Shown here: one piece after another, positions 8,412 to 52,924 of the stretch
Numbering within the stretch: position 1 is the first letter of the stretch
How the letters are laid out: the number at the start of each line of letters is the position of its first letter
NCBI GenBank assembly: GCA_030141605.1
Contig: JAQGDQ010000152.1
Span: 424,957-488,956 of the forward strand
Direction: 5' to 3'
Length of the DNA: 64,000 nt
Source: Tubiluchus corallicola
Taxonomy: Eukaryota > Animalia > Priapulida
Program-made: the position numbers and the translations under genes
Notes under the pieces: generated by a model
What the model saw: only the letters and a program-made list of their open reading frames with translations
Databases searched by the model: none
What the model was told of the DNA's origin: nothing

Positions 8412-9128
8412 TAATTTATTAAATCTATAGTGCACAGTTCATATAGAGCAAGGTAATAATTACTGCAGCAAGTGATATGATGGAAATTTAACTGATGTGC
8501 CTGATAAAATTTTGCTGAAAGCTTAACACACAGTGAGAGCCCATGACGTGTCCTAAAGCAAAAAAAAATGCGTAACGGGTGCAGTGAACTTTGGAACTGC
8601 TGCAGGAATATTGTGATTCATATATGCCTTCCCATGTATGTTTACATATAAACTTGTAGTAAATGACAGTACCACATTCACAGTTTCTTAGTGATACTGA
8701 CATCCAGCATCATTGTTGAGGCATTAAAGGTGAAATACAGCATACTTTTACAAAAGAGCAGAAAGAAAATGCTCGAAGATTTTGTGATACTTTCAACTTG
8801 TTCTTGGTGTTTCATCTGAGAAGAAATCGGGTGTGAAGATGTCATTTGATGAATTGAAGAAAGTCTGGAGCATGTTTTACTCGTTACATGATGCTAGCAA
8901 AATTCATGTATAATTACGCCAGTGTTTGCGTTTAGTTATCACGGGTCATATTTCACCGTGTTCACAAATTCAGCATCACAGAAACGATGCGGATATCCAA
9001 GGAAGCCATTGCTAGGACATTTATTTAACCCGCGATTTTCTGGAGTTTCATGAGCAAAACGACCAAAATGTTTGGGGAACTGTTTTAAAAGAAAAATATG
9101 ACACGTAGAGTAGCAAACTTTAGCACAT

Positions 9129-10205
9129 TCACAAGCAACTCAAGTTATTACCCTTTCTTCGATTTGACAAATGAGCTTTGATGATCTCACTGTACAAGTT
9201 TCTACCAATCAGCTCATAACCCAGTGGCAGCAATCTCAACACGGTCTTTGTAAGATAATTCGAACCGTAACAAAACAGATCGAGGCCCAACTCTAGCCCC
9301 ATTCCATAGTCACATTCATCGTTTGCAAACTGAACAAAGCTAAGCAGTTCTTGCAGAGGATCAAAAGATTTTATTCTATCATCATCGTTCTCGGCTTCGT
9401 CGATGGCCTTCAGCATTTTCTTCAAATCGGCATGACTTTCGGTCACCTCTCTATAGCCGACATCGTTTGCATCAACGGGGACGACCAGACCCGCTCTGTG
9501 AAAAGTCTTACACACGACATCATCTTTCCAGCGCGCCTTCATTTCTTTCGTTTTCTTCTCCATGTTATAGCCTTTTCTTTTAGCCCAATCAGTGACTGCT
9601 TTATAGATCCTTTCAACGGACATCCTTTTCGAAGGTTCTAATCTCCCGCCTATCAGAGATGTCAGGTGCAATTTTACAGCTGCAAAGAGATTCTGGCCTT
9701 CCGGTTCTATTCTACAACCTTTGTCCGGATCATTTGAGGCCACAAACGCCGGCATCGCAGATGGGTCGTCTCTGAAGTAACCAAAATGAAGTCCGGAGTC
9801 GCTTAGAGACCTAAGAACTGTCTGAAACTCTGGCGGGTCATAGAAGAATCTCCAATGAAGAAAACTGTCTTCCTTTTGGAAACTTTTTCCTTCAGATTTG
9901 CCTGCTAAAATATCAAAAGGACCAACAAGCTGCAGAAAAGCAGATTCTAAAGCGTCTTCTGGTTTATCATTCTTCAGTGACTTACAAAAGTCCCAAAAGT
10001 CGTAAAAGTCGGCCGGCATGTCCATACCGTAAATATCCTTGATTTTTTCTTTCGGTTCTTCACTTCCGGGTTTGAATCGCTTTTTTGCAGGCTCTTCAAT
10101 TTCAGTTCTTGCCTCCTGTTCCTTGACGCTGTGATTGTACATGCTTCTATGCAGGGAATTCTTCTGGTAACACTTGGCACCATATTTGCACTCGGGTTTA
10201 CTCAT
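9129..10205 (-). CDS. HPF1: Histone PARylation factor 1 with N-terminal PBZ zinc finger, 358 aa, intronless CDS
   Basis: Motifs MPADFYDFWDFCK, LVGPFDILAG, LHWRFFYDPPEFQTV, HFGYFRDDP, KTFHRAGLVVPVD, DVGYRE and FANDECDYGMGLELGLDLFCYG (catalytic Glu). N-terminal CKYGAKCYQKNSLHRSMYNH is a PBZ pattern. AATAAA on the minus strand at 9020-9025. Confidence 0.96.
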   Translation of the reverse strand: MSKPECKYGAKCYQKNSLHRSMYNHSVKEQEARTEIEEPAKKRFKPGSEEPKEKIKDIYGMDMPADFYDFWDFCKSLKNDKPEDALESAFLQLVGPFDILAGKSEGKSFQKEDSFLHWRFFYDPPEFQTVLRSLSDSGLHFGYFRDDPSAMPAFVASNDPDKGCRIEPEGQNLFAAVKLHLTSLIGGRLEPSKRMSVERIYKAVTDWAKRKGYNMEKKTKEMKARWKDDVVCKTFHRAGLVVPVDANDVGYREVTESHADLKKMLKAIDEAENDDDRIKSFDPLQELLSFVQFANDECDYGMGLELGLDLFCYGSNYLTKTVLRLLPLGYELIGRNLYSEIIKAHLSNRRKGNNLSCL

Positions 10206-10273
10206 TGTTATTGGTAATTAAGACTTATGCACAGGTAAACAGCTTAAAGGTGAAATGCGGTAACTACAAGCAC

Positions 10274-11625
10274 TTATTTTTGTGACGATCTTGCCGTGCT
10301 TACGGCAGCCATACTATGAACCATCTGAGCCACAGCCGAGGGTGCCACACTCATTCGTAACAGGTCCACCAAAGATCTAAAACATGACAAGTACACAATA
10401 AAATATGCAATAAAATATATTTTAATATATACCGTATATACGTGTGTAAAAGTCAATGAGTATTTTAAGACCAAAAACTGCATCATTTTATATATTACCT
10501 GTGTACAAACCGACCATAAAATATTAAGATCTTCCAGAGTAAATGATGTGTTAGTGTGTAAGATACCTGCAAGTGCCTGGGCCGAGTATATATATATATA
10601 CACATGTATATATAGGGCCCTCAATGCAATCCATGATAATACAGCCTGACCTTTCATGGCGCATAATGGTTTGTAATGCCTTTAACTCTAGGATATCGTG
10701 GTCAGTTGCCGATTTCTCACATAAAACTAAAAACCCATAGCAGAAACGTCACAGTTTTATTCAGTAACATCATTGGCGATTTCCATGTTCTGATCGAGTG
10801 CTCCGTCGCTAGTTTATTTACCGATAATATATAAATTTTAACTTAATTTCACATACATTAAAATCAATTACAGTAATATTTCTTAATTTTGTGCAGTAAT
10901 GTCAAGATGCGAACAATCTCTGATGTGAAGTATCACAGTATGAGTGTTCATTCAGTCCAGCGTATAATGAAGGATTATTTCTTTACATATTTGTATTGTA
11001 GACGACTCTTTAGCGACATCTCCCAAAAACATCTCGTTAAGTATAAATCGACCCCAAAAATTTCATCTTAAAATCGCCTCCCAAAAATTCGACTTGTACA
11101 TAAGTATATACGGTAACTCATTTTTATTCTTCAAATGAAAGATACGTGTATAAAACATAAGACCCCAAGGTCAGATCCATTATATAGGTATATGTAATTA
11201 GAAATTAGGATCAATGGCAGGGATCACTAGTCACGACAGATATATTGAGCGTGAAAGAGTATATTGAGAGTGAGACACTAAAAAAGTAAGAAAATGCTAC
11301 ATTACATAAAACAGACAAAAATAAAATATGCAGTAAAATTCATTACTAAATTTAGGCTTTAATAATGTAACTTTCAGATAAAAGTATAGAGATTATTATT
11401 GCAGCAAAACGTTAAAACAGGTGGCTGCTATCACGACAGATTATCTTTTACCAACCAAGAAAGCTACACTAAAACTTACTTGAAAACTTCCGGATCAATA
11501 GTAACACCAGCAAGATTGCAAAGCTCATACAGTTCCGCTTCTTCAGCTGTTAATACCAATCTGTTACGTTTTGTCAGTGTAATTTTACTACTAGCTTGTT
11601 CTTTCTGCTCTTTAAGATGGTCCAT
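10274..11625 (-). CDS. MZT2: Mitotic-spindle organizing protein 2 (MOZART2), 82 aa; exons 11625-11480 and 10376-10274
   Basis: Spliced MDHLKEQ...VLTAEEAELYELCNLAGVTIDPEVFK|SLVDLLRMSVAPSAVAQMVHSM matches recalled human VLSTEEMELYELAQAAGGAIDPDVFK-ILVDLLKLNVAPLAVFQMLKSM. GTAAGT donor and TTTTAG acceptor, phase 2. An acceptor at 11636-11637 implies an upstream non-coding exon. Confidence 0.9.
10432..11113. mobile_element. Tc2/Tc1-mariner-like non-autonomous element in the MZT2 intron
   Basis: TA|ccgtatatacgtgtgtaaaagtc ... gacttgtacataagtatatacgg|TA. Confidence 0.7.
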
Positions 11626-14600
11626 TAAACATGAACTAAAAATAAGAATGGAAAGGAATAGATAAAGCCGTAAAAACAGCATTAAATTCTGAATAAAGAA
11701 CACTTATTTTAATATATGATGTTGCCACTATGATGAATCTCTGAAAATGAGCCAGAGGTAAAAGGAGCAATTGCCTTGGGCCCACTGGGCACTGACAATT
11801 AGTTTGAGAGGCCTTTTAGCAAACTGGCAGGGGCGCCCAGGGAATTGCCCCTTTTGTAACATATAGCGCAATTTAAAAAATTATAACTTATTTTTATTCT
11901 TCAAATGAAAGATATATGTATAAAACAAAAATGACACCAGGTCAGGCCCATTATAGGTACACGTACACTAATATCTCGCGGACCTCGCTTTTACAGACAT
12001 CGGAAGAATCAGACAAAATCTAGACAGCTAGTTGGCAGGCCGTCACTTTGTTTACATCATTACATCAGTGTAACCAAGCAGCGTAATGAGAAGAAAAATA
12101 TAGAGTCAATTATGCGGAGTTATTTGAGTCAATTGCCAGCAACTTTTATATAATTTTGCATTAGTAATATAGACTTTTGTGTAAATTGGCTTCTAAGTAT
12201 GTACTTGTTTGTGTGGGTGTGCGTGCATGCATGAGGGCATATATGTGTGCGCATATGTATAAATAAAACTAATACTCAATATCAGTGTTTAATAAGAAAT
12301 GGCTATTTCTTTAATTACAAGACTAATTACTATTGGTTTTAGTAACACACCACAAAATTATAGTCAAATGTGCAAAAGCCAATGCAGCCCTGTTAAAAAG
12401 CAACTATGTACTGAAAGGGTTAACTTAGTATTGGTAAATACGAACAAACGGCAAATTTGGACCAACGTGTCCCTGCTTTTGTTTGGTAAACCCGGATATA
12501 AGTGTAATTACAAGTATGCAATGTACACACGCACGCACATATATGTAAAATAAAATTACAAAATTAGTTAAGTTGTGAATATTTTAAGCTGTTAACTGAA
12601 AGAGATGAAAGTAGAGATTGCAATAACCATAGATATGATGCAAAATCCATTTTTTAATCACTACATATAAGTAGGTCTGTATCACAGGACTTAAATTTAC
12701 CAATATCCACATATGAAGCCTATGAATACGAAATCATAATACCATACATTATATTAATACCAGATAATAAGAAGATTATGCTTCTCAGATTTAGTTTGCA
12801 CTTAAGGCTTCCATAATAGGTTCAATGTGAGGACTGCCCTTGCCTGACTTAAGTTAATTTAACTACCTGTTGCTGTAATACTGACTCTATTTGATGTATC
12901 AGCTCAACAATCCACAGCTGAAATAATACTAGTACTAGTAGTAACAGGTTAGTTTACACAATTCAATATTAATATTATATTGGCTTGTCAAACCACTACG
13001 TCTACTAATATAGTGAAATAGTGAAAAAGTACAACTGCAAGTACAGCCTACAGCCACAGGACGTAAAAAAACTAAAAAATTTAAACTTTACGACAAAATT
13101 AATATCGAGACTGAAGGTATTATAGTTTACCAGGAAACAACTGAAAGTCACAAGAAAGTTTAAGAAACTGAAATGTCACAGATACGATGAAGTTCCGCTA
13201 CAATATAAATGACATAATAGTTAAGCTACAAAGCTTGGAGAGATTGCGGGAAATCCAAAAAAATTTGTCAATAGCAGAAATCTTTTCAGTTATCTAAACC
13301 ATTAAGCGATTCCTCTTATGCCGCACACTCCCTTGCTGGCTTTCTTCCCCTCTCTCCACACCAATCACCAACCAGGATGGAGCTGTTGCAAACTGGAGAG
13401 TCTGCTAACAACTTGACAAGTGGCTGACATGAACTATTAAATTTATTTCACGCAATAAAATACACTAACCGTCTAACAGACACCCCAAAAAATTTGAAAT
13501 AAAACAAAAATTAATAAGTAGACAGTGTGTATGACATGGTGCTCAGTGTCTAATGCGCTGCTGAGTTAACTGTGTATAGTTGAGGTAGGAATTCGTATTT
13601 TACCCGAAGTCTGTAAAAGGTAAATTGTCAAATCCATAAACAAATTCAGTTACTTGAGTTTGCGCCTTTGCTTAAACTTATAAATAGTAAAAACTGCATT
13701 TCATAAACTTTTTTTCAGTTCTTCCAAATTGACAGTTGTAAACATTTAATTAATTCAGCACTTCGTTAATTAATTGCAATTGTGTTTCATTGTATCATAC
13801 AATGTCAATACTAATTTTGGCTGCTTTCTCAGTAATGCTGATTCCCTAAAATGAAATTGTGACTTCATGTACAAGTGTCTTAGTCATGTTTAGGATAATT
13901 TCATTGTGCTAACAGTTGTGCATTCATAATCATAATTAGCTTTAAGTAATGCCTGCTTCTCAGAAACACATCGCCGTTACTTTTCACTGCGCAAAAAGCA
14001 CTATGCTAGGACAGCAAAAGTATGTGTAACATGCATGGAACCCAGTCATAGTGTCCCAAAATTACACTTACTTTTGTGGTGTGTCTGTAGCTCAAACAAG
14101 ATACAGATGAAAATTTCTTGGCATATGACATCATCACAGGCCACACTCACAGGCTGTCGATTGCACTAATGTTTCATTACAGGAAATATTATTATTGTCA
14201 CATTAAATTATTATGGGTAATCGCATTATAGACCACAATCTAAGGGAGATGTAAGTATGGCACTTGTTTAACATCACTAACAGGCTGTGTAATGTTACAG
14301 AGCAATTTATTAGATCAAAGTTTCGCAGAATCAGTGAAGAATCTGTCTTGTTTCAGTATTAGTGTGGAAGTTCTAAAATGGATTTAGCAGCTTACAGTCT
14401 CTCTTGAGAGGTATCATTGGAACAGATTGAAATTAATGTCCTGGCTGCCCTGAAAGCAATATGTCTCTGATTCAAATCCAGATTGTATTCTATCTTTTTC
14501 ATATTTCCTGCATATTAAAATTCAATTAATTGTGAGGTTGTACCATGTTAGTGATATTCTAGACATGGTTAGTCTGAAAAATGTTTTGTTGTAGTAGTTC

Positions 14601-16566: not shown

Positions 16567-17301
16567 GACGCTATTACACTTTCGCACCGCCTAGTTTTTC
16601 CTGGCCTATTGGTTGTTTTCACGCCTGCAGGCCAGAAAGCAGACCAACAGGCGTAATATACACCATATTCCCATAATATTATTGGTTTTTAGGCTTTATA
16701 ATTCCAGATAAAATCATACATTACTTACCGACGCCATTACGCAAAAAGCTCCACGTGAATAAACGTGTTTACACCACTAATGCGCAATCGCTCTCGCGCA
16801 GTGACGATGTCGCCCTTAACATGTATTTTTAGTTTCTTCGCATAATTTATGATTATTAGGGTTGCAGCCACGGGACCCAAGCTGGCATACGAGGAAATTA
16901 TTTTAGATGACTACAGTTATTTATCATTAATTTTATTTATGACTGTAGTATTATTACTATTAGATTATAAAAAAAAGTAAAGGTTTTTTCTTTATTTCGT
17001 AAATGCGGTGAAGATGAAAGTGTGTCACATGCTTTTAAGCTAGGCCCTGATAATGCATAAACTAGTACGAAATTCGTCACGTGACTACACACACAAACAA
17101 GATGGCGATATGAACTGTATAGGTGTAGAACTGTGAATACAGCGTAATTATTGGTAATTATACCTAAATATATGATTAAATTACAATTAGATTAGCGGAA
17201 ACATTCACTGATGACGTAAGAATAATAGAATAATGACGTACGAGCCTAGAAACAAGTAATAACCTACAAAAAACTAGGCGGTGCGAAAGTGTAATAGCGC
17301 C
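16567..17301. mobile_element. Mutator/MULE-like non-autonomous element (735 bp)
   Basis: About 32-bp near-perfect TIR g(a/g)cgctattacactttcgcaccgcctagttttt; perfect 9-bp TSD cacaaactg at 16558-16566 and 17302-17310. Confidence 0.88.
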
Positions 17302-30921: not shown

Positions 30922-33900
30922 CTATGCATAATAGCTTGGTGAGACTAGCAAGTCAGTCAACACGGCCACCTGATCATCGGTGAACTTCAACTTATGATCT
31001 TGCCAGTTGTCGTGATGGGTTCGTCGGAAGTTGCTGAGGGTCTTCTTCACCGTCATCTGTATAGGTTGAGGATCGTGGATGTGGTCACTCAGTGCCATCA
31101 GGACATCCGGTATGAGTTCAGGAACGTCGTACGGATGTGCACCGACGTACGAACACAGACCCAGAATGCCAGCGTGCCTCTTTATCAATGCAGTTTGGTC
31201 AATCGGATCTCGTTTATTGTTCTACAGTTAAAAAACAAATCAACCTTTAATACTTTAAGAAATGAGCAGTAGAGTAAAATCCAATTTAGTAATATGAATG
31301 TTTTAAGATTGGCATATTAAATTTTTTGCCCACTTTTGAGCTTCGGCAGTGCAAGCTTATGTAACACGGAATTTAGCAGAAATACAAAATTAAATAGCAG
31401 AAATTAAATGTGTGGTGATCACTCATACTTACAATAAGAGGAAAAGTTATTTGATTGCTAAAAGTGATTCAAGTCAACAACTGTGACAAGCATCTGTCTC
31501 ATGCACCATCACCCCATTTAAATCACAACTCTTTTTACCTCGATTAACGAAATATGTTGGCCAATGTGATACTACTACGGCAAGAATTTCTATGTTTTGT
31601 ACGTACAGGTTTTCGAATTTGCATTAATTTTACAGCGGTCTGCTCACTTGGCGTCATTGCCTAATGCGGTTTTTCCTTGTGAAATAAGAGATTAGCTACA
31701 ATGACATTTCAGGCTACCAACATTGTTACACAGCTGCCATTTTGTAAAAACAGCACAACCTTTAATTACTTTTGTTTGACTGAGACTCAGTGCGACTACA
31801 TTGATTGAACATATTGGCACAGTTTGCCTTCGCCTCAATTAGCATTTTCGTTAAACGTGAACTACTAGTAATTATATCAGTACCATAAACGAAGTTACCT
31901 TTAGTTTAGTTTTAGACCACTTTTTAAACATATCCAGCAGCTTAGCGTCCATGGGGAATAGATCACAGTGAATGAGTCCGGTAAATGTAACAGCTGCCAT
32001 GTCTCTCACCTAAGAGCAGTAAACAGTTTTTCAAGATACAGATCTTGCAAAGACAAATACTTAATATGAGTTGTCAAGCAAACATGCATGCAATAAATTT
32101 ACATGGAAAATACCTCTAAAATATGGTAACAGTTTAGCCATTCATAATCGAAGTCAACCGAGAAAGGTTACTGCTTGATTATACTTTTCCTATCATTGTT
32201 CAAATAACCATGACTGGTAAGAAAGAATACTGCAGAGGAACTGCCGGCCAGCCATTATATTGGACGTGCAATCGGCAACTTTTATGTGAAGAAGCCTCAA
32301 ATGTGGTAGCAGTTTTTCGAGTGGCTCGTGAAAAATCACATTTATATGTGGTGTGTGAAAATGGAATTCTAATGAATAAAAGCATTGCTTGATTACACAT
32401 GTTATTTGCCTCTTAAAAATTCTTACCTCCAATTGTTCGTTTCTCATCATTTTGAGGACCACATCTCTGATGAATTCGACCCACTTCTCATTTTGCATGA
32501 TATTGAAAAGATTGCAAAATACCATAACCTACATGACAGATAACATAGACTTTTTATAATATTCTGGTAAAGAAGAAGAATGAAATATTAATCACCATAA
32601 ATCTAAGAAGTAATGATCATAAAGGTAGGAGAGTAATCCATAAATATGAAAGGTAAATCAATTTATGCTCTTAAAGTTAATTACGGTTGTATTTTCATAT
32701 TCAGTGACAGAAGCAGAAGTCAGTTAAGTTGCACATTTTAAATGAATTACCCTCACAAGCAGTTTTCCAAACATTTAAAGTTAACAACTAAGTGTCACCT
32801 TACCTGTAGATAAGCTAGAACAGAAGATTTACTTCGCCACGACGTTCCATCTGTAATTTTCTTCACTTCGTCTAATGCTACGGTGATGACTTCTGGCTTA
32901 AGGTATGCCTGAGCAAGGCAAGCAAGGGTCAACGCACATTCCTTTTTTAATTCCTCATCTGTCGATTCATGTTCTAGTTGAGAGATCAATGGAAGGAGAC
33001 GGAAAACTTCAGGTGGTGCACTATAGTGCATTCTGGCTAGTGAAGCTTGGAGCCACTTTAGTGTCGTTTCAAATAGACGTTTGGCTTCTGTCTTTTCGGG
33101 TTTTTCATCTGATATTTCCTGTGCTCCATTCAAACCATTTTCTAACAATATCATCAACTTTGGAACAATTTCGGCAATAAATTCCTTCCGTGAAGGGCAA
33201 AAGACATTACTAATGTGCTTTAGTTCAATTTCAAATAGAAATGTATTAGCTAGAATGCTGCCTAAACGATCACGTACATTCTTAAACGAGTTGCTTAGCT
33301 TTGGTTTAATCACATCATATAACGTTTGTAAGAGTTTTGAAGCACGCCATTCTTGCTGAGATACTGCACCTTGGAGCAGATACAAGCGTCCTGCAACATG
33401 AAATGAACCTTCAGAGTTATCTTGAAATGGGTTTTCCAACAAAACTTTGAACAGCCAATGCAGTTTTCTAATATCCATGCTTTCCGAAGCAGTTGCTACA
33501 CATGTTCCCCAGTCTTGAACTGTCTCCAGTGTCATACTTTTTAGCACCTGACGTAGAAGAGGATCCAGCCATTCCCAAAGATCTTGGAGTTTTTCAAATT
33601 TCCAATGTTTACTGCCTTTGACCAATGCAGCAATCATTTCTGATGCGCAGCGCTGGCTACTTTCATGACTGTCCAAAGCGAGCCTTTCTATATGTGGGCG
33701 CATAAGTGGTACAAAAGTGTCACCAAAATTGCGAAACAGTGCCCTCAGAAAATTGTACTTTCTTGCATCAAATTTGTCCTTTCCTTTTGTCTCTTCCAGA
33801 GAGAAAAAGTTTAGGAGTTTTTCCAGGAATGCTTCACTAGTGAAAGCATCATAAATTGGGAGCTCCTCTTCCATTAGTTCTTCTCTAGTTCTGTCTAGTG

Positions 33901-36900
33901 ATGGTTGCTCACTATCTGGTGCACAGGACTTTAAAGGAGATGGCCATGCATAATACCCAACATGGGTTTTTTCAATGAAAATACAACTGTTCCATTTCTC
34001 AGCTGTATCAGGAACATCATGTGGATCATACAATAACCAATTGTTGTCTGGTTGAGTCAGCAAATCTACTCCAGTGCTATCATGTTCACCAACAGCATTA
34101 TTATCATCTCCATCTTTATGTTTGGTAATTACATGATTGGGCATATTCTCGAAAGACTTTTTCCTGGTCATTGTTTTTAAATCCACTTCAACTTTTTTCC
34201 ACTTTTGTTTTTGTTGTTTTAAAATAGCTCCTAATGCAGCAACCCCCAATTTTCTGACTAAAACTGCTTCTCCAATCGTGCTCTGTACGAAGACTGAAAC
34301 CCCATTAGCTGACATTTTCTTGTCTTTTCTAATCAACAGTGTGAGGCATCCTAATGCTATCTGGTAATGTCTCCATCGTAATGTGCCTCCATTCAATAAG
34401 TCAACAACTTTCTGAAGTAGACTGCTGTATAGTTCACCATTTTCTCGGTTGTCCTGTTCCACCAGCTCGTGTTGTTTGGCTATTTCGCTATCTGTTGGTA
34501 TGGACTGCTCAGGTTTTGGTTCAGATGACCATAACTCTCTTGCCGAATCTGTAACTGTTTCAGGTATTTTCAGATCAATTGCAAATGTGTCAAAATTCTT
34601 ATGAATTTTATCTATAACCTCTTCGGTGACCCTAGTTATGGATGGTTTTTCGGAATGCTGTGCCTGTATGAGTACTGGCCAAACCTCTGACACCACTTTC
34701 CAATCCCGTTTTGTGGCAAAACACTGTGTTTTTCCATTTCCCTTTAATACATACAAAGCACCCTTAAACTGTTCGTGGGAAATTTTATCGTCTTCTTTCA
34801 GTAATTCCAATGTTTTTGGTAGTATATATCTGTAGGTGTGTGGGAATAGCTGCAGGACAGCCGAAAGCACTGCTTGTGATTTACTTCGAACTTGACTATA
34901 ATGGCTAGTCGCAAGCTGAAAAAGATCATCTAGTACAAGCTTGTGTAACTCTGTGAAGATGTACTTCGACTTGTCTAGTATGCGGCGCTCGTGTTGTAGC
35001 AGCACTCTGTCAATTAAAAGTGCTCTTATGTGCCTCTTTTCTTGAATTAGTTTGTTCTCCATGGCTTTTTTGACAACCTGAAAACTTTTAAAACGTGTGT
35101 CAAAGTCATCACTCTGAACACCTTGAAACTTAACAATTGCAGAATAGATTCGAATCATCGTGAAAACTGATTTGATATCATCATCACTCGTCACATTAAT
35201 ATGCTGCAGGAGTCGATGCATAGTATGAAGTATAACCTCTCTGATATTTTTGCCTGCCAGTGTTAATACGTCTTTGTGGGAATACCCGTATGTAATAGCA
35301 ACTTTATCCAATCCTACTTTACTTTCTACTAGCTGTACTGGATTTTCTTCTAAAAGAGGTAGCATTGTACCCGTACCCAAGATGCATTCTAAAACTGTGT
35401 TCAAGCTCTGTTGCAATTCAATACGAGACAGACGTTTCTCTTCTGTCACAGAATCTAACTTTTTCAGTTCTGCTTCGAGAAATATATCTAAAAGCTCTTG
35501 CGCAAACTCCCTTTCTTTGTCACAAGGAATATGCCATTGAACATTGAGACTATTAATATCACCTGGTTTGGCCCAGTCATTCAGGGGTAGGTAATCGTCG
35601 GGTGGACACTTAAAATTTGTTGCTACACTGCGAAATTCAACTGGATATATTAGTGTTAGTGATTTCAGTGTATTTCTCAACATTAGGCCAGCCAACTCGA
35701 AACCATTTCTTGCTTTTAGGCAAAGAGTTCGTTCCAGTACTTCTGTTATCAAAGTCTTGTATGGCAAAAGACATTCCCCACTGCATCGTACAACTTCACA
35801 CAGTAACTGCAAGCAGTACAGAAGTTCATGGTCCGTTTCTTCTTCTCTGTACGCATCCTCACTTTCTGATAACAGCATGATCTGCTTGTGAAGATGCGGC
35901 ATAAACAATTTTAATGCTTCGGGTGGGTTAGCCTTTGATGCTGCCCTGCACATATTAGCTACAAACTTTCCAGCAACAGATATATTAAAAACACTGCTTC
36001 TTACAAATGAGAACAACATATCAAGTGCAGAACGATAGATGCTATCAGAGCTTTGGGTTAAAACAGAAGTAATCGTAGAACTTATTCCTACTTCTAGCAT
36101 ACCTTCTTCCAAGTTCAATTTTTCAAGGCTGTATGGCCCAGCATTATGGTATGCACCACCATGATCACCACAGTTTCTCACCAATTCAAAACATTTGTCC
36201 ATAAACTGTAGCACAAATTCTTCAAACCCAGCTGTTGTCATACAAACTTCTTTGTCTACCTCACTTAAGTCATCCCTGTTTGAAGCTTCAGAACACTCTA
36301 CCAGTGGCACTAGCGTTGAAAATGTTGAAATTAACTGAAACGTAACCATAGATTTTTTGATATCGTTAGAGTCAATACCGGGCAATGACGACATCAACAG
36401 TGGTAAAAAATGCAAACGTCCTTCTTTGTAATCGTCACTCCCGAGCATATGCCTAGACACTGCTACAATGCAGTTCATAGTAGAGACTAGCCGATGTGGT
36501 TCTGTTAGAGTTTCCAGTGCAGGATACAATCGCTCTAATATTTGTGGAATAACTATCTTGGGCCTGACTGTGGCTAAATTCTGAAAAGCGCCGGCAGAGT
36601 CACCACTTCCGGCTTTGCTAAACATAGCTAATAAAACAATCGGCGTCATGGCTTCCACAAAACGTGTGATTTCATTTTCACTTAATTTGTGACTTTCTGG
36701 AATAGGAGGTATCCAACTTGGTTTACTAAACCTTTCATCATGTAGTCGCCGGACAAATGATCCAGACAACTTGCTTAATAACCTCTGAAGCTTCAATATC
36801 CACCTAAAACACAAATTGGGAATCTGTTATTTTGAGTAGTTATTCGTCCTTTGGAATACTTCTGTAAATTTAATATCAATTTATGTGGTACATAATACAG

Positions 36901-38079
36901 TGTGGCATAGCTAATAGGAGAGCAACTGCTCTCCAAGCACATTTTTGAATAGTGGCACTTTTTCAACAGATACTTATTACTCTTTGACCAACCTGCCTCC
37001 TTTGTTTTTGAAATGAGCGAGACATCAATGTATATATCAAGAGTTATTGGCATCAATCAACTATGAATTACATAAATTTAACAAATGTCTCACCTTCCAG
37101 CATTGGATGGATGAAAGTAAGACTCTAAAGCTTTAAAAAGCTTTTCAATATGATCTATTGTACCATGGTTGCCACCCATCATATAGACAATCCAAAGAGC
37201 TGTATTTCCTATGTCGAAACTGCAGTTTGATCGTCCTACTTGTATTTCTCTTGACCCAACAGGCAAGTTGAAACTGCGCATGAGTCGCGTAAAAATTTGA
37301 GAAACATACGTAGTCCAGTTGATGTAGCCAGCATTATCTTTTGCCAGTCGTGCAAACAAATTTACCAAATGTACTTCCCACGAAGGCACATTATGACAGG
37401 CCATCCAGATGTCAATAAGTTCGTTCAGCCACAATTTGAAGCCTTTGTCGTGGTGTGCTGGAGGAATCACTGTGGGGAAAAACAATTCAAACAGTTGCAT
37501 CGCTTTTCCCATTGATGTATCAAATGGACACAACAATGGCCGCCACTCCTTTAACATCTCTTGTGTCGCACTGAGTGGAAAATAAGATCTCGCTGCCCTA
37601 ATCAAATTTTTGATCACAGCTTCTGCAACATTGGGATAGAGCACCAAGCCCATCTGTTCACCACCACTGTACACAATGTCGTCATATATTTTGTACAATG
37701 GACGCCATGGTATTTGGATGTCATTGTACGAAAGCAAAGTTTTCTTTTTCAATAATAGTGTAAGATGCGAAGCAAACTTTACAACAAGTGACATTTCCAT
37801 ATCTTCAGCTATAACAATATTACAAAATAAGTTTATGAAAGCTATATGGTCTTCTTTGCTAAAGTTGAATCCATACAAGGAAATGTATTTCGTTAGCCTA
37901 GAAGCCCAATACGTTGCTCCCGGCCGCATCTCCTTATACAAAGTGGCTGTTCCTAGCTTTTCCTTAATTTTTGAAATATGCATTTCTGCTTGTTCTTGTA
38001 AAGTGTCACTGTATGGCAGCAACCGATTATATGGTAGCAGCTTCTGGGGACGAAACTTTGATTCCACTGCCTCCATCAT
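30922..38079 (-). CDS. PSME4: Proteasome activator PA200/Blm10, 1832 aa; exons 38079-37094, 36803-32804, 32528-32427, 32009-31899, 31221-30922
   Basis: GT-AG introns with phases 2,0,0,0; total 5499 nt. Motifs [38 protein letters not shown]|[37 protein letters not shown] and C-terminal HbYX motif SPSYYA. Acceptor at 38089-38090 precedes the ATG; minus-strand AATAAA at 30414-30419. Confidence 0.97.
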
Positions 38080-40819
38080 GTTGTCAGACTGAAAAAGCAG
38101 ACAAACAGTTAAAAAAAAACAAATTGCCATTAAATTTAAAATTATTAAACTCTTTGCTAGCACACTACACAAAGACAATGCGTGGGCTAATAGTGACAAA
38201 AGCCCTAACTGGATTTTTTTGTTTCCATTTTACTGTATGGATGTAATTAGACTAAGTTGGAACCGTGTTACAGAAAAATATGTTTAATTTTAAGCAGTGA
38301 AAGTGCAAAATTACGCATGTACTATTATGGTAGAATGCCAGTAATTTTTTTTTCAGATTTCTGAGGATTAAAAATTCTGGTGTTGTCATTATACCTAAAT
38401 ATTTTACCTTACGAATTATTTGGATTAAGGGTTAAGCTTAGCTCCGCATTAATTTTAATGTAAAAAGAAAGGTTAAGGATGCATTTTCCAAACAAGCATC
38501 AGCAATAATAATGCTTCATTGTTTTCATATTTTAATTACTAACAAAAATTATTATTTGTCACACTAACACCACACTGCTGTAAGGTTTTATATTTACGAG
38601 TACAAAACTACTCAACTTTTATTAATAAAAGAGTAAGCAACTGTGTGCATAAATGTTTCCTCTTTTTTATCCTAATTACTAACGAAAATTATTATTTATC
38701 ATACACCATACTGCTGTGTTAATTTCTATACGAGTGAATATAAAATAGCTTGAAACTTAGTAAGTAATAACTGCAAAATTAACTGTTGTCTGATAAAGAT
38801 GTGGTATAATATGCATTGTTTATAGCTATGTATGTGATGCTGGCTATTCATGAGCTTTCTTTCCTGTAGCACAGAAAATGTTGACAATCCATCTAACTAA
38901 CCAGCATAACCAGCATATGTCACGCAATGGAGTCGTGTATTGATGCACTGAGCTTTTAATTGAACACATTAAATATAAGGATGATTGCAGAATTTCGTGT
39001 TCTGGTTAGCAACAGTCAATTTATAATTAGAAAAGGAAGTGAGCCAAGCTCAATGATCTGGGATCTATGCCACTAACCTTACTCTCACTTGTACGCATGT
39101 GCAGTTAAGCTGGCCCTCGGTGATGAAATCACGCACATTCTTTCTTCATTAGAAATGTTCCAGTACTAGCAGCAGGAGGTCAGCATAAGCGTATCAACAT
39201 ATCACATTATTTATTTAAATTATTCAAGAAAAAATTATTTAAGTAGACTGACACACTAGATTTCATCACAGGTTGCAGTACGTTCACAGCACCGTCTTGC
39301 CTGTTTATACTTCACGGAGGCCTAGACATTAAATATAACGTTTTAGTATAAACGTGCTGAAATTTCTTTCTGCTTTAACACTTTTATATAATACTATTTA
39401 TTTAGTACTTTAATATCTTTATATAACCATTATATGCCGTTCATAGACTTTGACTTCAATAATGCTACTGATTTCGTTCGATACACATGTATTTAAAACA
39501 TCAACGGTTCTAAAATTATTGGCACAGATAAAAATTACGTGATTAATCAGTGCAGTACATTAGCATGCTGACGTCGTGTTTAATAGGAGGCAAGAAAACC
39601 ACAGTAACTGTATTTATAAGTGAAAATTCATGACAGTGTGCACACAGTGGTTAATTTAGTTCGGAAAATATTGATCATTTTGAACATGTTACTAGTTTTT
39701 TCATCTTGTTTAGAAGACGACTGCACTAAGTTTTCCTTATTTATAAAACTCGAAGCAGTGAAGATTATAGATTCTCTAAGAAAGAGTTAAGACAAATAAA
39801 CAGCAAGAACTGTGGAACAAAGACAATACAGTATGCACAGATGTATATTGCATAGCAGTAAAATAGAAGAGATTCCTGGATGAAAACAATAAACCGGAAC
39901 TGCTGTGGCAAGTTGTTTCAACACAAACTTTTAGTGAACTGGTAGGCAGCTTCAAGACAATTTCTCGACCAACCAGCTTCAGGGGAACAAATTTTTTGAT
40001 CACGTTTTCAAAATGTCTGGAAGGGAAAACTTCGTAGATTTGTCAGTATTCCAGAGCATTTAAGTTTTCTTTGAAAACTGATTATATCTACGATGACTGA
40101 GCAGTTTACTGAAAGGCCAGTAAGGAATCAGTCTATTTAGTGTTTACATGGATGACACACAAGCCTTGCGAACAGTAGCCACAAGAAATAATATTAGCAG
40201 AGATAAAAAACTTTGAAACGACGCAACGAAAGTTTAATATCTAATTAATGGATTACGATGATTTACGATTAGTCTGGCCTTGAACCGATGAATTTCGAAT
40301 TTGCGCGTAGTTTTTGTACAAAGCGATGAGTTGACCTCTGCAACACTTTTTGACGTGCAGCATGTGCGCAGCTGCTCATAATTAAGGAAATGCCGACGCA
40401 AATGAAAGCGTTTTTTTTCAGAATTGTAGCCGTTCTTTGCTAGCGTATTAAACGCGGATTTGTTTATTAGAACACATGCCGCAAATAGTCAGACGCATCT
40501 AAAGACGCCCTGTACCATCATGTACATGAGCATGATAGCCTTCGCATCTTTCCACCAAATCAAATCGAACTGTATTTAAAGTCGGGTTTTACATAAACGT
40601 AAAAGACACTAGCTCATGAGAGCTATTAAGCCGACTCATTTAACAAAACAAATCTACTGAAATAAAATAGCGAATTTGGGAAAATGGTGACTCCACGGAT
40701 TAGAAAGTTATAATGTTGGACTTTTGTTGCTCAGTAAACTGTAACTATTGAATCAAAAATGTGTTTATTTCTGGAAAGCAGATACATGAGACGTTACGGA
40801 AAGACTATCGGTTTTTTTA

Positions 40820-45750: not shown

Positions 45751-45998
45751 GGCTAAAATCAATTTGAGTACTTTTTCCTTGGTTTGTTTAAAAGTGCTTC
45801 ATTGTGTGTAGCCAAAAATGAATAAAACGCGATGTATACTTCCAGATGGTGAAATCCTAACGTTATAGCCTGTTATAGTAAAATAACTGGAATATTCGAA
45901 CTACCCCATTACATTGAATAGGAATTGCAATACGTTTTTTTGGGTAAGTGAACCATGTTAGTACATTGACTTCACCGTTTCAAAGCAAGTGTGCAGAA

Positions 45999-47480
45999 AT
46001 GGCAAGTCAGATAGGACATGAGGTAGAAGAGTTTGTAGAAGGTTGGGATTTTGTGCAAACACTTGGGGAAGGTGCTTATGGAGATGTAAAACTTGTTATC
46101 AATCGAATGACACAAGAAGCTGTAGCAGTAAAGGTTATCGATCTGTCAAGATTTCCACAAGCTGTGATGGATGTCAAGAAGGAAATAGCCGTGCATCGTA
46201 TGTTAAAACACAAAAATGTAATCCAGTTTTTTGGAAATCGAATAGAAGATAAACTGTATTACATGTTTATTGAGTACGCTGCTGGTGGAGAACTTTTTGA
46301 CAGGATTGAACCTGATGCTGGCATGCCACAGCCTGACGCACAACATTACTTTAGACAACTGCTAGATGGTGTTTCCTATCTGCATGAACTTGGAATAGCA
46401 CACAGAGATATTAAACCTGAAAACCTACTTTTAGATGCAGATAATAATTTGAAAATTACAGACTTTGGTTTGGCAACACTTTTCAGACACCAGGGAAAGG
46501 AACGAAAATTGACAAAGCGCTGTGGAACCTTGCCGTATGTAGCACCAGAGGTTATGAATAACAAAGAATACAGTGCAGAGCCTGCTGATATCTGGAGCTG
46601 TGGAATCGTACTTGTAGCCTTGCTGGCTGGTGAGTTACCATGGGATTACGCTTGTTCTGATAACAAAGAATATCGTGACTGGAGTGACTGTAAAATAATG
46701 TCTACTCCGTGGAATAAAATCAACAATCTGGCGCTATCAATATTGCGTAAGATTTTAATGCCCATTGTGAGTAAACGTGCAACGATTCGGCAAATTCAGA
46801 ATCACGTTTGGTACACGAAAAATTTTCATAAAAATTTACAACACTCGCAGCACTCGTTATCGTCGCCCGAGAATTCAATGAAAAAGTTGTGTTCTGAGAT
46901 GGATGTATCACCATCCGCAAGTCGTTGCCCTAGCAGCCCTACTGAAAGAATGTCCGCATCACAACCAATGTTCCATTCCTCTGATACTACTGATAATGCG
47001 GAAGAGAAACCGCTTATGGACAACCTCCTCCATGGGGCATGCTTTTCACAACCAGTAAGTAAAGCTGAAGACATGTTGCTTAACTCTCAGCTGACTCCGA
47101 CACAGAGTTCACAAACACCACTGCAGAGACTCGTTAAAAGAATGACAAGATTTATCGTCACCACATCGGCAGAGGAAACTGTCGAAAAACTAAAATGCGC
47201 AATCAAACGTCTTGGCTATCATTACAAACAGAATTCTCTAGGCGAAGTTACCATAGAGATGCAAGACAAGAGAAGTGTCAGACTTGTTTTCAAGGCTTGC
47301 CTGCTCGAGATGAACTCACAAATTCTGGTTGATTTTCGCTTGTCGAAGGGAGATGGCATAGAGTTCAAACGGCAGTTTCTTCGTGTGAGGGAGCAAGTGA
47401 AAGACATCATCAACAATAAGGTGCAGTTGCCACTACAAACAGTAACGAACACCGTTTGGTCAGAGGAAGTGAAATGCTGA
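45999..47480 (+). CDS. CHEK1: Checkpoint kinase 1, 493 aa, intronless CDS
   Basis: FVEGWDFVQTLGEGAYGDVKL, EAVAVK, GGELFDRIEPD, HRDIKPENLLLD, DFGLATLFR, CGTLPYVAPE, GELPWD, SQ sites (SASQP, CFSQP), QTPLQRLVKRMTRF and C-terminal KA1 domain (VDFRLSKGDGIEFKRQF). ATG at 45999 chosen over the GTG in the ORF track. Confidence 0.98.
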   Translation: MASQIGHEVEEFVEGWDFVQTLGEGAYGDVKLVINRMTQEAVAVKVIDLSRFPQAVMDVKKEIAVHRMLKHKNVIQFFGNRIEDKLYYMFIEYAAGGELFDRIEPDAGMPQPDAQHYFRQLLDGVSYLHELGIAHRDIKPENLLLDADNNLKITDFGLATLFRHQGKERKLTKRCGTLPYVAPEVMNNKEYSAEPADIWSCGIVLVALLAGELPWDYACSDNKEYRDWSDCKIMSTPWNKINNLALSILRKILMPIVSKRATIRQIQNHVWYTKNFHKNLQHSQHSLSSPENSMKKLCSEMDVSPSASRCPSSPTERMSASQPMFHSSDTTDNAEEKPLMDNLLHGACFSQPVSKAEDMLLNSQLTPTQSSQTPLQRLVKRMTRFIVTTSAEETVEKLKCAIKRLGYHYKQNSLGEVTIEMQDKRSVRLVFKACLLEMNSQILVDFRLSKGDGIEFKRQFLRVREQVKDIINNKVQLPLQTVTNTVWSEEVKC

Positions 47481-50271: not shown

Positions 50272-52008
50272 TTATCTGACTGCTACTTGTGGCATACTCC
50301 TCACACTTGTCTCGCTATTCTCATTGCTATCTGAAGCATGACTACAGCTTCCAGAGTTGTTGTCTTGATGTTTTTTTATTCTTTTTGCAACATTTGTGTT
50401 TAGGGCTTTTTCTTGAAAAGAAGTTGCTGGATCGTGGTTTACCAATTCTTCGATCTTTTCGTGTAACTTCTGTTCGGCTTTGCCAAACTTTTTTAAGCGT
50501 CCTGGTATCTTACACTCAGGAATCGAAACAAGAAGCAGTTTTTGTAGCGCTACAGTTCCGCGGTCCATCATCTTAGAAAGGAATTCGGGGTTTGGCCTGG
50601 CAACCACCAAAAAGTATATAGGAACGGAAAGCGACTGAATCACAAAGTTAATTATGAGACCTTCTACGTATTCAGGATAAATAAGTGGTACAATGATGAG
50701 ACATACACTCATCAGCAAAAACACTACAGGTATGAATGTGGGGAATGTCACAGGTCGAGGCAAATCGGGTCTCTTCCAGCGTAAATATAGTTGTGTCACT
50801 ACTCCCATACCCACCATACTCCATCTCAAGCAACCGTAAGAGTTGTGTAAAGCTTCAAGGTTGTTGTCCGATACTATGACATATAAGCTGGCCATCACAC
50901 CATTAAGAATCAGTGCCGGTATGGGTGTAAGATGAATGACGCTGATCATCGCAAATAGTTGGGGTAGATGCTGCCCGTCACGTGCACCCACGTAGTAAAT
51001 CCTGCCACCCATAAAAACGCGACCATTTAGGACGCCTGCTAACGACAATGTTATCAGAGCTGGCATTATCACCACCCACGATCCCATCGTTCTAGCTGCA
51101 AAATCAAGAGCTATAATACGACTTTCGAGAATCTCTTCTTTTGGTATCACAACCATATAGGCGAGGTTGGTCAAAACATAAACGACTGTCACAATGAACA
51201 TAGATATTAAAATTGCCCGTGGCAAAGTTTTGATTGGATTCTTAATTTCTTCCACTGCATAGTTCAGGGTCTCCCACCCCGCATACGAGTACACGCCCCA
51301 ATACATGGCTCTCGCTATTGATCCACCCTCCAAGTTCGTTCCTTCAAATACTGATTTTTGAAATTTAACTGGATATGTTGCTAACGCTACGATACCCATA
51401 ATGCTGATTATGATTAGAGCCAACATTTTGCTGTGAAACGTTAATATCTCGAAATTCACTGCCCATTTCACATTGAAGCAATTAATTACAATAACCAGCC
51501 ATATGACGGCAAGAGCAAAGCAACGTTCGGCTGGTATGTTAGACTCTAGCTCACATCCTGGCAACACATAACTGAATGCAGTGTTATGCCGAGCAAGCGT
51601 TAGAGCAGCGATTGCTTGTGCAACTGGTCTTCTAAGCCACAGTTCCGACCAAAGAAAGAAAAAAGCGGCAAATGGACCAAACGCTTCTTTAAGATACGTG
51701 TATTGGCCACCTGACTTGGGAATAGTCAGACCTAATTCAGCATAGCACAATGCACCAAATAAAGAAAAAATTCCAGACATTAACCACACTATCAACGATG
51801 CGCCGGATGATCCGGCGTGTAGGATCACATTCTTGGGCGTGGTGAATATACCTCCACTGATTACTGAACCAGACAAAAGGGCGATACAGGCGACCAATCC
51901 CAATCTACGATGCAATTCGTGAGGTTCCTCAGCTGACATAAGAACATCTGCTTGTTTTGTAGACGACTTTTCTGTTGAGGCGCCAGATTTATCATCTCCC
52001 TCGGCCAT
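50272..52008 (-). CDS. SLC7 family L-type/heteromeric amino-acid transporter light chain (APC fold), 578 aa, intronless CDS
   Basis: LHRRLGL, GIFTTPK, GALCYAELGLTIPKSGGQYTYL, extracellular Cys (LPGCE), YSYAGWETLNYAVEEIKNP, LPRAI, YVLTNLAY, TPIPAL, LRWKRPDLPRP; about 12 hydrophobic segments. A splice acceptor at 52071-52072 implies a 5' UTR intron. Exact paralogue not assignable. Confidence 0.93.
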   Translation of the reverse strand: MAEGDDKSGASTEKSSTKQADVLMSAEEPHELHRRLGLVACIALLSGSVISGGIFTTPKNVILHAGSSGASLIVWLMSGIFSLFGALCYAELGLTIPKSGGQYTYLKEAFGPFAAFFFLWSELWLRRPVAQAIAALTLARHNTAFSYVLPGCELESNIPAERCFALAVIWLVIVINCFNVKWAVNFEILTFHSKMLALIIISIMGIVALATYPVKFQKSVFEGTNLEGGSIARAMYWGVYSYAGWETLNYAVEEIKNPIKTLPRAILISMFIVTVVYVLTNLAYMVVIPKEEILESRIIALDFAARTMGSWVVIMPALITLSLAGVLNGRVFMGGRIYYVGARDGQHLPQLFAMISVIHLTPIPALILNGVMASLYVIVSDNNLEALHNSYGCLRWSMVGMGVVTQLYLRWKRPDLPRPVTFPTFIPVVFLLMSVCLIIVPLIYPEYVEGLIINFVIQSLSVPIYFLVVARPNPEFLSKMMDRGTVALQKLLLVSIPECKIPGRLKKFGKAEQKLHEKIEELVNHDPATSFQEKALNTNVAKRIKKHQDNNSGSCSHASDSNENSETSVRSMPQVAVR

Positions 52009-52924
52009 TTTTCACTCGGAAAAAACTGCAATTCCCAACATTTCTAATGATATCTAGACTTCAGCTTCTCCTAAAAAGAAAATTTTACAATTAGAATTTT
52101 AGTTAAATCTTTAATTTTAATTTAAAAACTTTGAGGCTGTGCTGTGGATAATATAATGCAAGAAGAAATTAACTGAATTCATTTGAGACCAATGATCACT
52201 AACAGTCACTTTGCTGTATAAATCTGCATATATCTGCAGTGTATTGCTTAAAGAACTATGACAGATTGGCACTACGTATAGATAACACAAAAACACACAT
52301 TGCTGCACGAAAGTTAACTGTAACTATTAATGAAATTTAAGATATTTGTAACATAGGAAGTGTCACATACAACTAACACACTTCTAAACTCCATAGGTTT
52401 TGCATTACCGTACGCATTGTGTGAGCACTCATCACTGTCACATCACACGCCACAAATTTATCAATATTTTTACAGTTTCTATCAACTAGAAACGCTGACG
52501 AAACTCGACAAACCTGATTTCAGCGTACAGTCAGGCAAACTATAGGTCTACGTTGTTTACTACCTAGCATTGATATGTGTTGCTGCTAAATGTTGAAATA
52601 ATAACCACCTTTCCTCATTAGTCGCCTAAAAATGTCAATAATTTTTCCTTCATTTATTTTGTTGAACTGCCTGGCTTGTGTTCCATCAGATTGTTCTAAA
52701 TTCAATAACACGGCTTCCTATTCAATGTGCGGAAGCATTATGGGATGCGCAAGACAAAGAATACTTCACACTTGCATGAGCGCTTCTTGCTTATCCATCA
52801 GCTTATTACTTTGTATTGAGTCTCACACCTCTTAGCTGAGCAAATGCAGGTGCTAGCAGTACTTATTGACTCAGTAATATGGTGATTGTTTGCACTGTAC
52901 TTGAAGTTGCGTTTCTGCATCATA

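What the first reader, a model, noticed from the sequence alone, without database searches (positions are those of the whole stretch)
9129..11635. MZT2 and HPF1 look like one dicistronic or operon-like transcription unit
Seen: both genes are on the minus strand; the MZT2 stop (10276-10274) is only 68 nt from the HPF1 ATG (10205). The spacer has no AATAAA and no ATG; an AATAAA follows HPF1 (9020-9025). The MZT2 ATG has T at -3 (weak) and the HPF1 ATG has A at -3 (strong). Inference: the 82-codon MZT2 ORF may act as a functional uORF on a shared mRNA (leaky scanning or reinitiation), or HPF1 may be released by trans-splicing or alternative cis-splicing to an AG in the spacer (10265-64, 10244-43 or 10225-24). 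This would co-express a gamma-tubulin ring complex subunit with the PARP1 serine-ADP-ribosylation cofactor. I do not know of this pairing being described.
Basis: partly seen in the sequence, partly recalled or inferred. Interest (0 to 1): 0.8.

Follow-up and report, generated by a model that had tools for sequence, protein, structure and literature searches.

The report
MZT2–HPF1 two-gene messenger RNA
In this invertebrate a small spindle-organising gene (MZT2) ends 68 bases before an intronless DNA-repair cofactor gene (HPF1), and the two likely share one spliced messenger RNA, a likely new example of the two-protein messages already well known from fruit flies.

Summary
MZT2 (82 aa, one intron) stops 68 nt before an intact, intronless HPF1 (358 aa); the spacer has no ATG or AATAAA, and AATAAA follows HPF1. 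The best support for one transcript is indirect. A relative's complete, intron-free MZT2 and complete HPF1 each lie on a single Logan contig of 1,538 nt. Equal lengths arose in 3 of 1,176 control pairs, and both ORFs plus spacer need 1,394 nt. I could not read that contig. Another relative keeps 34 nt of the spacer. The three spacer AGs score as poor acceptors, which argues against splicing into the spacer. Six AUGs precede HPF1, so simple leaky scanning is doubtful; low-level scanning plus reinitiation is my best guess, and an internal HPF1 promoter is the main rival. The genes are unlinked in 5 of 5 bivalves. Verdict: a likely new member of the Drosophila-type dicistronic class (159 fly pairs). 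The scan noted other such pairs on other DNA, not this one.

The parts
16729..16790 (-). Candidate first exon and promoter (CpG-rich, ATG at 16737, donor GTAAGT at 16728), head to head with the moonraker/KIAA0753-like gene; the upper bound is approximate and the link to MZT2 is not shown
   Evidence: inference. Spliced directly to 11635, its ATG would open a 10-codon uORF overlapping the MZT2 start, so it may be the first coding exon of another gene
11636..11660 (-). Polypyrimidine tract and AG acceptor 10 nt before the MZT2 ATG
   Evidence: 96th percentile of all AGs; use not shown; the matching flank in run X2 is unlike it
11612..11632 (-). 6-codon uORF (weak context) overlapping the MZT2 start out of frame
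11480..11625 (-). MZT2 coding exon 1 (ATG with T at -3)
   Evidence: Pfam MOZART2 E 3e-8; same start Met in three relatives' proteins; X2 contig 90% alike
10377..11479 (-). MZT2 intron, GT-AG, phase 2, 1,103 nt, repeat-rich
   Evidence: relatives' 82-aa proteins join the two exons at this point
10274..10376 (-). MZT2 coding exon 2 to stop; holds three in-frame AUGs (10354, 10324, 10312), the last in strong context and 12 codons before the stop
   Evidence: Met 57/67/71 kept in P0121 and P0122
10206..10273 (-). 68-nt intercistronic spacer: no ATG, no poly(A) hexamer, weak AGs, little structure, HPF1 out of frame with MZT2
   Evidence: 34 nt align without gaps in run X2; one substitution in X1
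9129..10205 (-). HPF1, single exon, 358 aa, PBZ finger plus HPF1 domain, ATG with A at -3
   Evidence: 20 of 25 listed X2 differences at third codon positions
9020..9025 (-). AATAAA about 100 nt after the HPF1 stop; predicted shared poly(A) signal
   Evidence: use inferred

Best explanation
MZT2 and the intronless HPF1 lie 68 nt apart on one strand and likely share one spliced, dicistronic mRNA, from which HPF1 would be made at a low level by leaky scanning and reinitiation. Shown: both ORFs are intact and under purifying selection, HPF1 has no intron, and there is no canonical poly(A) signal in MZT2 exon 2 or the spacer. Inferred: a promoter upstream of MZT2 drives a transcript that splices out the MZT2 intron and ends after the AATAAA at 9025-9020. 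Most ribosomes would make MZT2. Some would pass its weak start and the weak internal AUGs, initiate at the strong in-frame AUG 12 codons before the MZT2 stop, terminate, and reinitiate at the strong HPF1 AUG 68 nt on. Low output would suffice, since HPF1 works at about 1:20 to PARP1 in human cells. The unit likely arose within this lineage, plausibly when a processed HPF1 copy came to lie in the last exon of MZT2. With no intron after the MZT2 stop, the mRNA would escape junction-dependent decay.
For: (1) P0001 (HPF1, 87% identical) and P0121 (complete 82-aa MZT2 with both exons joined) are each a single Logan record on one contig of 1,538 nt. Equal lengths occurred in 3 of 1,176 pairs among 49 control records (0.26%; 3 of 780 for 900-2,000 nt), and three MZT2-bearing contigs were candidates, so chance is about 1%. 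(2) The ORFs plus spacer need 1,394 nt, leaving 144. P0001's non-HPF1 length is 461 nt, against a median of 196 for 12 other full-length HPF1 Logan records; without MZT2 and spacer it is 144. (3) Run X2, a relative that matches none of P0121, P0122 and P0245, has a contig with 34 nt of spacer plus the HPF1 start, aligned without gaps (at most 9 differences in the 34). In the same run 9 of 17 nearby third codon positions differ and the MZT2 5' flank does not align. (4) X2 keeps T at -3 of MZT2 and shows no change at the HPF1 -3 base. (5) The spacer AGs are poor acceptors. (6) The 68-nt gap lies within the -34 to 319 nt range of exclusively polycistronic fly loci (PMC4528330, passages). (7) eIF3 stays on 80S ribosomes with a half-length of about 12 codons in one study (PMC10275272, passages). 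[quoted passage not shown]
Against: The 1,538-nt contig was never read. That the two records share it rests on equal length; that it is RNA rests on the missing intron (that relative could have lost the intron); and a short-read contig across two genes does not prove one molecule. The second complete MZT2 (P0122) is on a 1,003-nt contig, and no close HPF1 fragment on a contig of that length is among the 120 listed of 742 or the 120 listed of 358. Whether 3'-cut proteins are catalogued is unclear. No X2 contig bridges MZT2 and HPF1 (3 contigs laid). Six AUGs precede HPF1, and out-of-frame AUGs are not depleted (1 seen, 0.9 expected). In fly lemming, with three in-frame AUGs in ORF1, the downstream protein was undetectable from the dicistronic mRNA (PMC3372440, passages). 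Only 45 of 159 fly dicistronic loci are exclusively dicistronic. Neighbouring genes are also intron-poor, so retroposition is not the only reason for an intronless HPF1.
Confidence: 0.52

Rival explanations
1. HPF1 has its own promoter inside the MZT2 intron or exon 2. MZT2 mRNA merely runs through HPF1 to the shared poly(A) site, so a two-ORF RNA exists but HPF1 protein comes from a monocistronic mRNA.
For: It explains the 1,538-nt contig equally well and avoids six upstream AUGs. Of 159 fly dicistronic loci, 114 have monocistronic forms, and those of the downstream gene usually come from an alternative promoter (PMC4528330). In lemming, RACE found a 5' end 107 nt before ORF2 (PMC3372440). 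An X2 contig begins inside the spacer.
Against: CpG counts in the intron and exon 2 are 2-8 per 200 nt, against 11-14 at two candidate promoters and 7 at a third. The intron is largely repeats. X2 contigs are short (mean about 190 nt), so a contig start means little.
Confidence: 0.27
2. The unit is an operon resolved by splicing: a spliced leader, or the upstream first exon, is joined to a spacer AG (most likely 10244-43) and releases a monocistronic HPF1 mRNA.
For: X2 contig 2 aligns from record position 4 at 10239, so it would begin at about 10242, the first base after AG 10244-43, as expected at an assembly branch. The spacer is conserved. The gap size is like that of tunicate and nematode operons (PMC7986045, passages). 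A relative splices MZT2 exon 1 to another gene's exon (P0245).
Against: The spacer AGs are at the 29th-67th percentile. No leader sequence was seen at any loose end. PSME4 has an ordinary cis-spliced, in-frame first exon 7 kb upstream, so acceptors before ATGs here need no leader. SL operons normally cleave the upstream mRNA in the gap, and no poly(A) hexamer is there. A contig start within a few nt of one of three AGs has a rough chance of about 10% (my estimate).
Confidence: 0.12
3. Two independent monocistronic genes packed tightly: MZT2 ends at a non-canonical poly(A) site in or just past the spacer, and assemblers merge the overlapping ends.
For: Short-read contigs can merge overlapping transcripts (tool caveat). 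In lemming a 3' end maps 56 nt into the gap. P0122's contig shows no HPF1 hit.
Against: None of 12 hexamers lies in MZT2 exon 2 or the spacer. The window is not compact: the next gene is 3.2 kb away and introns reach kilobases. A terminator and a promoter would both have to fit in about 170 nt.
Confidence: 0.09

Closest known systems
Drosophila lemming locus, lmgA (Apc11, 85 aa) - lmgB (365 aa) (PMC3372440, passages read; row in the polycistronic-gene table, supplement file 5 of PMC4528330)
   Same: Small cell-division subunit first, an unrelated ORF of about 360 aa second, a short conserved gap (89-92 nt), three extra in-frame AUGs in ORF1.
   Different: The genes are unrelated to this pair. 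LmgB is fly-specific, dispensable and was not detected from the dicistronic mRNA; HPF1 is a conserved enzyme cofactor. Lemming has RACE and RT-PCR evidence; this locus has none.
FlyBase dicistronic gene pairs (159 pairs in R6.04; Snapin, stoned, Adh-Adhr, Mocs2; PMC4528330, passages and supplement searches)
   Same: Two non-overlapping, unrelated ORFs on one processed mRNA, with a stop-to-start distance in range and a small first ORF.
   Different: This pair was not found there (5 terms, 12 supplement files searched, file 1 not searchable). Here the shared mRNA is inferred from a relative's contig length.
Mammalian bicistronic mRNAs SNURF-SNRPN, CERS1-GDF1, RPP14-HTD2 (PMC4705651, passages read)
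   Same: A short protein and a second functional protein from one mRNA, thought to use leaky scanning or reinitiation.
   Different: Different genes. This unit seems lineage-restricted (unlinked in 5 of 5 bivalves).
Green algal bicistronic loci (PMC11892635, passages read)
   Same: Weak ORF1 start context, strong ORF2 context, short AUG-free gap.
   Different: Algal loci are depleted of internal AUGs and those present are weak. Here there is no depletion and one internal AUG is strong.
SL trans-spliced operons of nematodes and tunicates (PMC7986045, passages read)
   Same: Same-strand genes with a gap under 100 nt.
   Different: No strong acceptor in the gap, no leader seen, and no poly(A) signal for the upstream gene.

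Membership tests
Dicistronic mRNA locus (FlyBase sense) | Two non-overlapping same-strand ORFs, each a conserved protein, not fusable in frame | tested here: met
   HPF1 is out of frame with MZT2 and has an in-frame stop just upstream of its ATG
Dicistronic mRNA locus (FlyBase sense) | A processed mRNA that spans both ORFs | tested here: inconclusive
   Favoured by the equal 1,538-nt contig lengths, but the contig was not read; X2 does not bridge; no RNA run of this species was listed
Dicistronic mRNA locus (FlyBase sense) | Stop-to-start distance in the known range and no 3' end signal in the gap | tested here: met
   68 nt against -34 to 319 nt; no hexamer in exon 2 or spacer, though that is common by chance
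Dicistronic mRNA locus (FlyBase sense) | Downstream protein translated from the shared mRNA | not testable with these tools
   needs Ribo-seq or a reporter
Leaky-scanning bicistron (algal type) | Weak ORF1 start, strong ORF2 start | tested here: met
   PSME4's first ATG is also weak
Leaky-scanning bicistron (algal type) | Few and weak AUGs upstream of ORF2 | tested here: not met
   six AUGs, one strong; out-of-frame AUGs 1 seen, 0.9 expected
SL trans-spliced operon | Strong 3' splice site before the downstream gene | tested here: not met
   29th-67th percentile against 95th or higher for 9 of 10 acceptors (small, hand-picked training set)
SL trans-spliced operon | Leader sequence on mRNA 5' ends and an SL RNA gene in the genome | tested here: inconclusive
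   no leader at 2 loose ends; no Rfam hit in the window; no whole genome held
Retrogene inserted into a host gene's last exon | Loss of the introns found in homologues | tested here: met
   single-exon ORF; several metagenome loci match in pieces, and many genomic fragments begin near residue 259
Retrogene inserted into a host gene's last exon | Parental copy, or an outgroup with the empty site | not testable with these tools
   no genome held; neighbouring genes are intron-poor too

The most novel reading that the evidence does not exclude
The MZT2 unit is an operon resolved by spliced-leader trans-splicing at AG 10244-43, in a lineage (possibly priapulid or another scalidophoran) for which my searches found no report of trans-splicing. 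The same unit also splices MZT2 exon 1 onto a membrane RING ligase gene, so one promoter would feed three genes.
Probability: 0.1. Interest if true: 0.7.

Novelty: new member of a known kind. Interest (0 to 1): 0.36.

Why it matters
It adds a specific, testable case of a two-protein mRNA outside insects and vertebrates. The downstream gene is a conserved cofactor (HPF1) that works at about 1:20 to PARP1, so the locus is a neat test of whether a second-cistron position is used to set a low dose. It also warns annotators that one of the two genes can be lost or hidden in a UTR. It does not reveal a new mechanism or a link between the gamma-tubulin ring complex and ADP-ribosylation. Interest would rise sharply only if a spliced leader were found.

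Tried and rejected
No whole genome is held. No RNA holder was listed for this species; this is not evidence either way. Rfam gathering scan of the window: 0 hits. Metagenome scan: 28 HPF1 loci, all distant (38-72% best segment), none with an MZT2 match (best E 0.25). Search for an HPF1 fragment on P0122's 1,003-nt contig: none among the 120 listed of 358; inconclusive. The 30-letter X2 flank upstream of MZT2 has only AT-rich chance matches in the window and none to the candidate first exon. Stop readthrough or a fusion protein: rejected, the frames differ and a stop lies in the HPF1 frame upstream of its ATG. Splicing the candidate first exon to any of five acceptors gives only short ORFs of 4-23 codons. 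An IRES-like fold in the spacer: not supported (-6.0 kcal/mol; no shuffle control run). Deep conservation of the pair: rejected for 5 of 5 bivalves with both genes named (different contig lengths); Priapulus, Tubulanus, hemichordates and annelids could not be tested because only one gene of the pair was identified in each. Taxon: an HPF1 tree of 29 rows groups the window and P0001 with Priapulus and one long-branch fragment (95/96), on long branches, so it is weak. Literature: 0 papers for MZT2+HPF1, MOZART2+bicistronic and C4orf27+dicistronic; priapulid+trans-splicing+spliced leader gave 3 listings, none on priapulids by title or abstract start, and none of the 25 listed of 151 mentions Priapulus. 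No complex prediction was run, as nothing suggests that the proteins bind. Contig depths were not used to rank expression.
Full report
Observation. On the minus strand MZT2 has two coding exons (11625-11480 and 10376-10274, GT-AG intron of 1,103 nt) giving 82 aa. HPF1 is one ORF of 358 codons (10205-9129). The spacer is 68 nt, with no ATG and no canonical poly(A) signal, and an AATAAA lies at 9025-9020. Pfam finds MOZART2 on both MZT2 exons, and PBZ plus HPF1 on the second gene. HPF1 aligns with solved HPF1 chains over residues 48-353 (E 1e-102), and a relative's MZT2 matches solved MZT2A/B. A contig of run X1, which behaves like DNA and may be the source sample, spans 9389-10409 with 14 substitutions and no gap. 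The arrangement is real.

How much is more than chance. The negative features are weak alone. Of 382 non-coding 68-nt tiles, 88 lack ATG and 313 lack AATAAA/ATTAAA. T at -3 also occurs at the PSME4 first-exon ATG. The distance is informative: the window is not compact, the next gene (PLBD2-type, convergent) ends 3.2 kb away, and introns reach kilobases.

Evidence for a shared transcript. No genome is held and no RNA run of this species was listed, so the evidence comes from relatives. The best of 742 HPF1 hits, P0001, is 87% identical and lies on one Logan contig of 1,538 nt. The MZT2 exon-1 search gave 2 hits among 2 candidates: P0121 on a contig of 1,538 nt and P0122 on one of 1,003 nt. Both are complete 82-aa proteins with the two exons joined and the same start Met. 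P0001 and P0121 are single-member, single-contig records without accessions. With three MZT2-bearing contigs as candidates, the match has a chance of about 1%. The two ORFs and the spacer need 1,394 nt. P0001's contig has 461 nt beyond HPF1, against a median of 196 for 12 other full-length records; after removing MZT2 and the spacer it has 144. I infer one intron-free contig with both ORFs. I could not read it, and a short-read contig does not prove a single molecule.

Run X2 (a guessed RNA run; a relative that differs from P0121, P0122 and P0245 at residue 17 or 21) laid 3 contigs at 80%. One covers MZT2 exon 1, one the HPF1 3' part, and one 34 nt of spacer plus the HPF1 start, without gaps. 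In that contig 9 of 17 scored third positions differ, while the spacer has at most 9 differences in 34 nt, and the MZT2 5' flank does not align at all. The spacer therefore seems constrained. X2 keeps T at -3 of MZT2 and shows no change at the HPF1 -3 base. Of 25 listed HPF1 differences, 20 are at third positions. Against: no X2 contig bridges the two genes, and no close HPF1 fragment on a 1,003-nt contig appears among the 120 listed of 742 or the 120 listed of 358 shorter hits. None of the 31 short Logan HPF1 hits I aligned is an N-terminal fragment, so such pieces may be missing from the lists.

How HPF1 could be made. First, splicing into the spacer. A small acceptor model built from 10 acceptors picked by eye placed 9 of the 10 at or above the 95th percentile of 7,283 AGs (leave-one-out). 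The spacer AGs scored at the 58th, 67th and 29th. PSME4 has a normal cis-spliced, in-frame first exon at 45471-45454, so acceptors just before ATGs in this window need no spliced leader. One hint points the other way: the X2 spacer contig would begin at about 10242, just after AG 10244-43, but X2 contigs are short and break often. Second, scanning. From the acceptor at 11636, six AUGs precede HPF1. Five have a pyrimidine at -3; the sixth (10312) has A at -3 and G at +4 and opens a 12-codon ORF that ends at the MZT2 stop. The three internal Met codons are kept in both relatives, and out-of-frame AUGs are not depleted. This fails the algal leaky-scanning pattern of few, weak AUGs (PMC11892635, passages). 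It fits leaky scanning to a short ORF followed by reinitiation, since initiation factors stay on ribosomes for the first tens of codons (PMC10275272, passages). [quoted passage not shown] This step is inference. In the fly lemming locus, of nearly the same build, the second protein was not detected (PMC3372440, passages). Third, an internal promoter, which is common among fly dicistronic loci (PMC4528330, passages). CpG counts in the intron and exon 2 (2-8 per 200 nt) are below two candidate promoters (11-14) but not a third (7), so it is not excluded.

The 5' end is unresolved. A CpG-rich stretch with an ATG at 16737 and a GTAAGT donor at 16728 lies head to head with a moonraker-like gene. 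Spliced to 11635 it would open a 10-codon uORF over the MZT2 start, which is awkward for MZT2, so it may belong to another gene. A third Logan protein, P0245 (1,266-nt contig), joins MZT2 exon 1 at its exact donor to a membrane RING C-terminus. An atlas hit at 0.86 and my recall suggest RNFT (a lead only). That part is not in the window.

Age and origin. In four Mytilus species and Mercenaria the two genes lie on contigs of different length, and none of 28 distant metagenome HPF1 loci carries MZT2. The pairing therefore looks lineage-restricted. HPF1 homologues are often split by introns, so a processed copy in the last exon of MZT2 is plausible. CHK1, an SLC7-type transporter and PSME4 are also intron-poor here, so general intron loss is an alternative. 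The taxon is uncertain: earlier scan notes suggest a priapulid or relative, and my 29-row HPF1 tree is weakly consistent.

Comparison and novelty. It works like a Drosophila-type dicistronic locus (159 pairs; gaps of -34 to 319 nt where only polycistronic forms exist), closest in build to lmgA-lmgB, and like the mammalian SNURF-SNRPN, CERS1-GDF1 and RPP14-HTD2 mRNAs (PMC4705651, passages). Membership awaits a spanning mRNA. It fails the acceptor test for an SL operon (PMC7986045, passages). The pair gave 0 papers in three searches, and five terms found nothing in 12 supplement files of PMC4528330, with file 1 not searchable. The library lacks most subscription papers. The scan has noted several other dicistronic pairs on other genomes but nothing on this pair.

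Verdict. Observation confirmed; interpretation partly supported. Probability that a spliced RNA with both ORFs exists: about 0.8. Probability that HPF1 is made from it by scanning and reinitiation: about 0.5. New member of a known kind; interest 0.36.

Noticed in passing
P0245 (Logan, 1,266-nt contig); matches window 11625-11479: In a relative, MZT2 exon 1 is joined in frame at its exact donor to the last 200 aa of a membrane RING protein (RNFT-like, a lead and recall). That gene is not in the window. It may be read-through splicing, nesting of MZT2-HPF1 in that gene's intron, or trans-splicing.
   Followed up: partly
window 17100-59100 (+): A moonraker/KIAA0753-like gene (three weak Pfam MNR hits, E 0.002-0.008, below cut-off, in profile order) seems to span about 42 kb and to hold PSME4 (-), CHK1 (+) and an SLC7-type transporter (-) inside its introns.
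   Followed up: partly
window 30925-38229 (-), 45948-47480 (+), 50272-52011 (-): Strong intron loss in housekeeping genes: PSME4 has open frames of 1,343 and 379 codons, and CHK1 and the SLC7-type gene are single coding exons, while PLBD2 and the moonraker-like gene keep many short exons.
   Followed up: no
window 45471-45454 (-) and 38089: PSME4 starts with a 6-codon first exon 7.4 kb upstream, head to head with CHK1; it splices in frame to the main exon.
   Followed up: yes
window 16600-17110: CpG-rich bidirectional promoter candidate. The minus-strand exon (ATG 16737, three codons, donor 16728) has no in-frame partner exon identified; strong unassigned acceptors lie at 13611 and 12596.
   Followed up: partly
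window 45943-45998 (+): A perfect donor lies about 55 nt before the CHK1 ATG, followed by several AGs: a possible very short 5' UTR intron.
   Followed up: no
window 10120 (run X2 loose end): The X2 relative has a glycine-rich insert just after the HPF1 PBZ finger, absent from the window and from P0001.
   Followed up: no
window 13300-13450: A GC-richer, single-copy non-coding stretch upstream of MZT2 with no Pfam or Rfam hit; unexplained.
   Followed up: no
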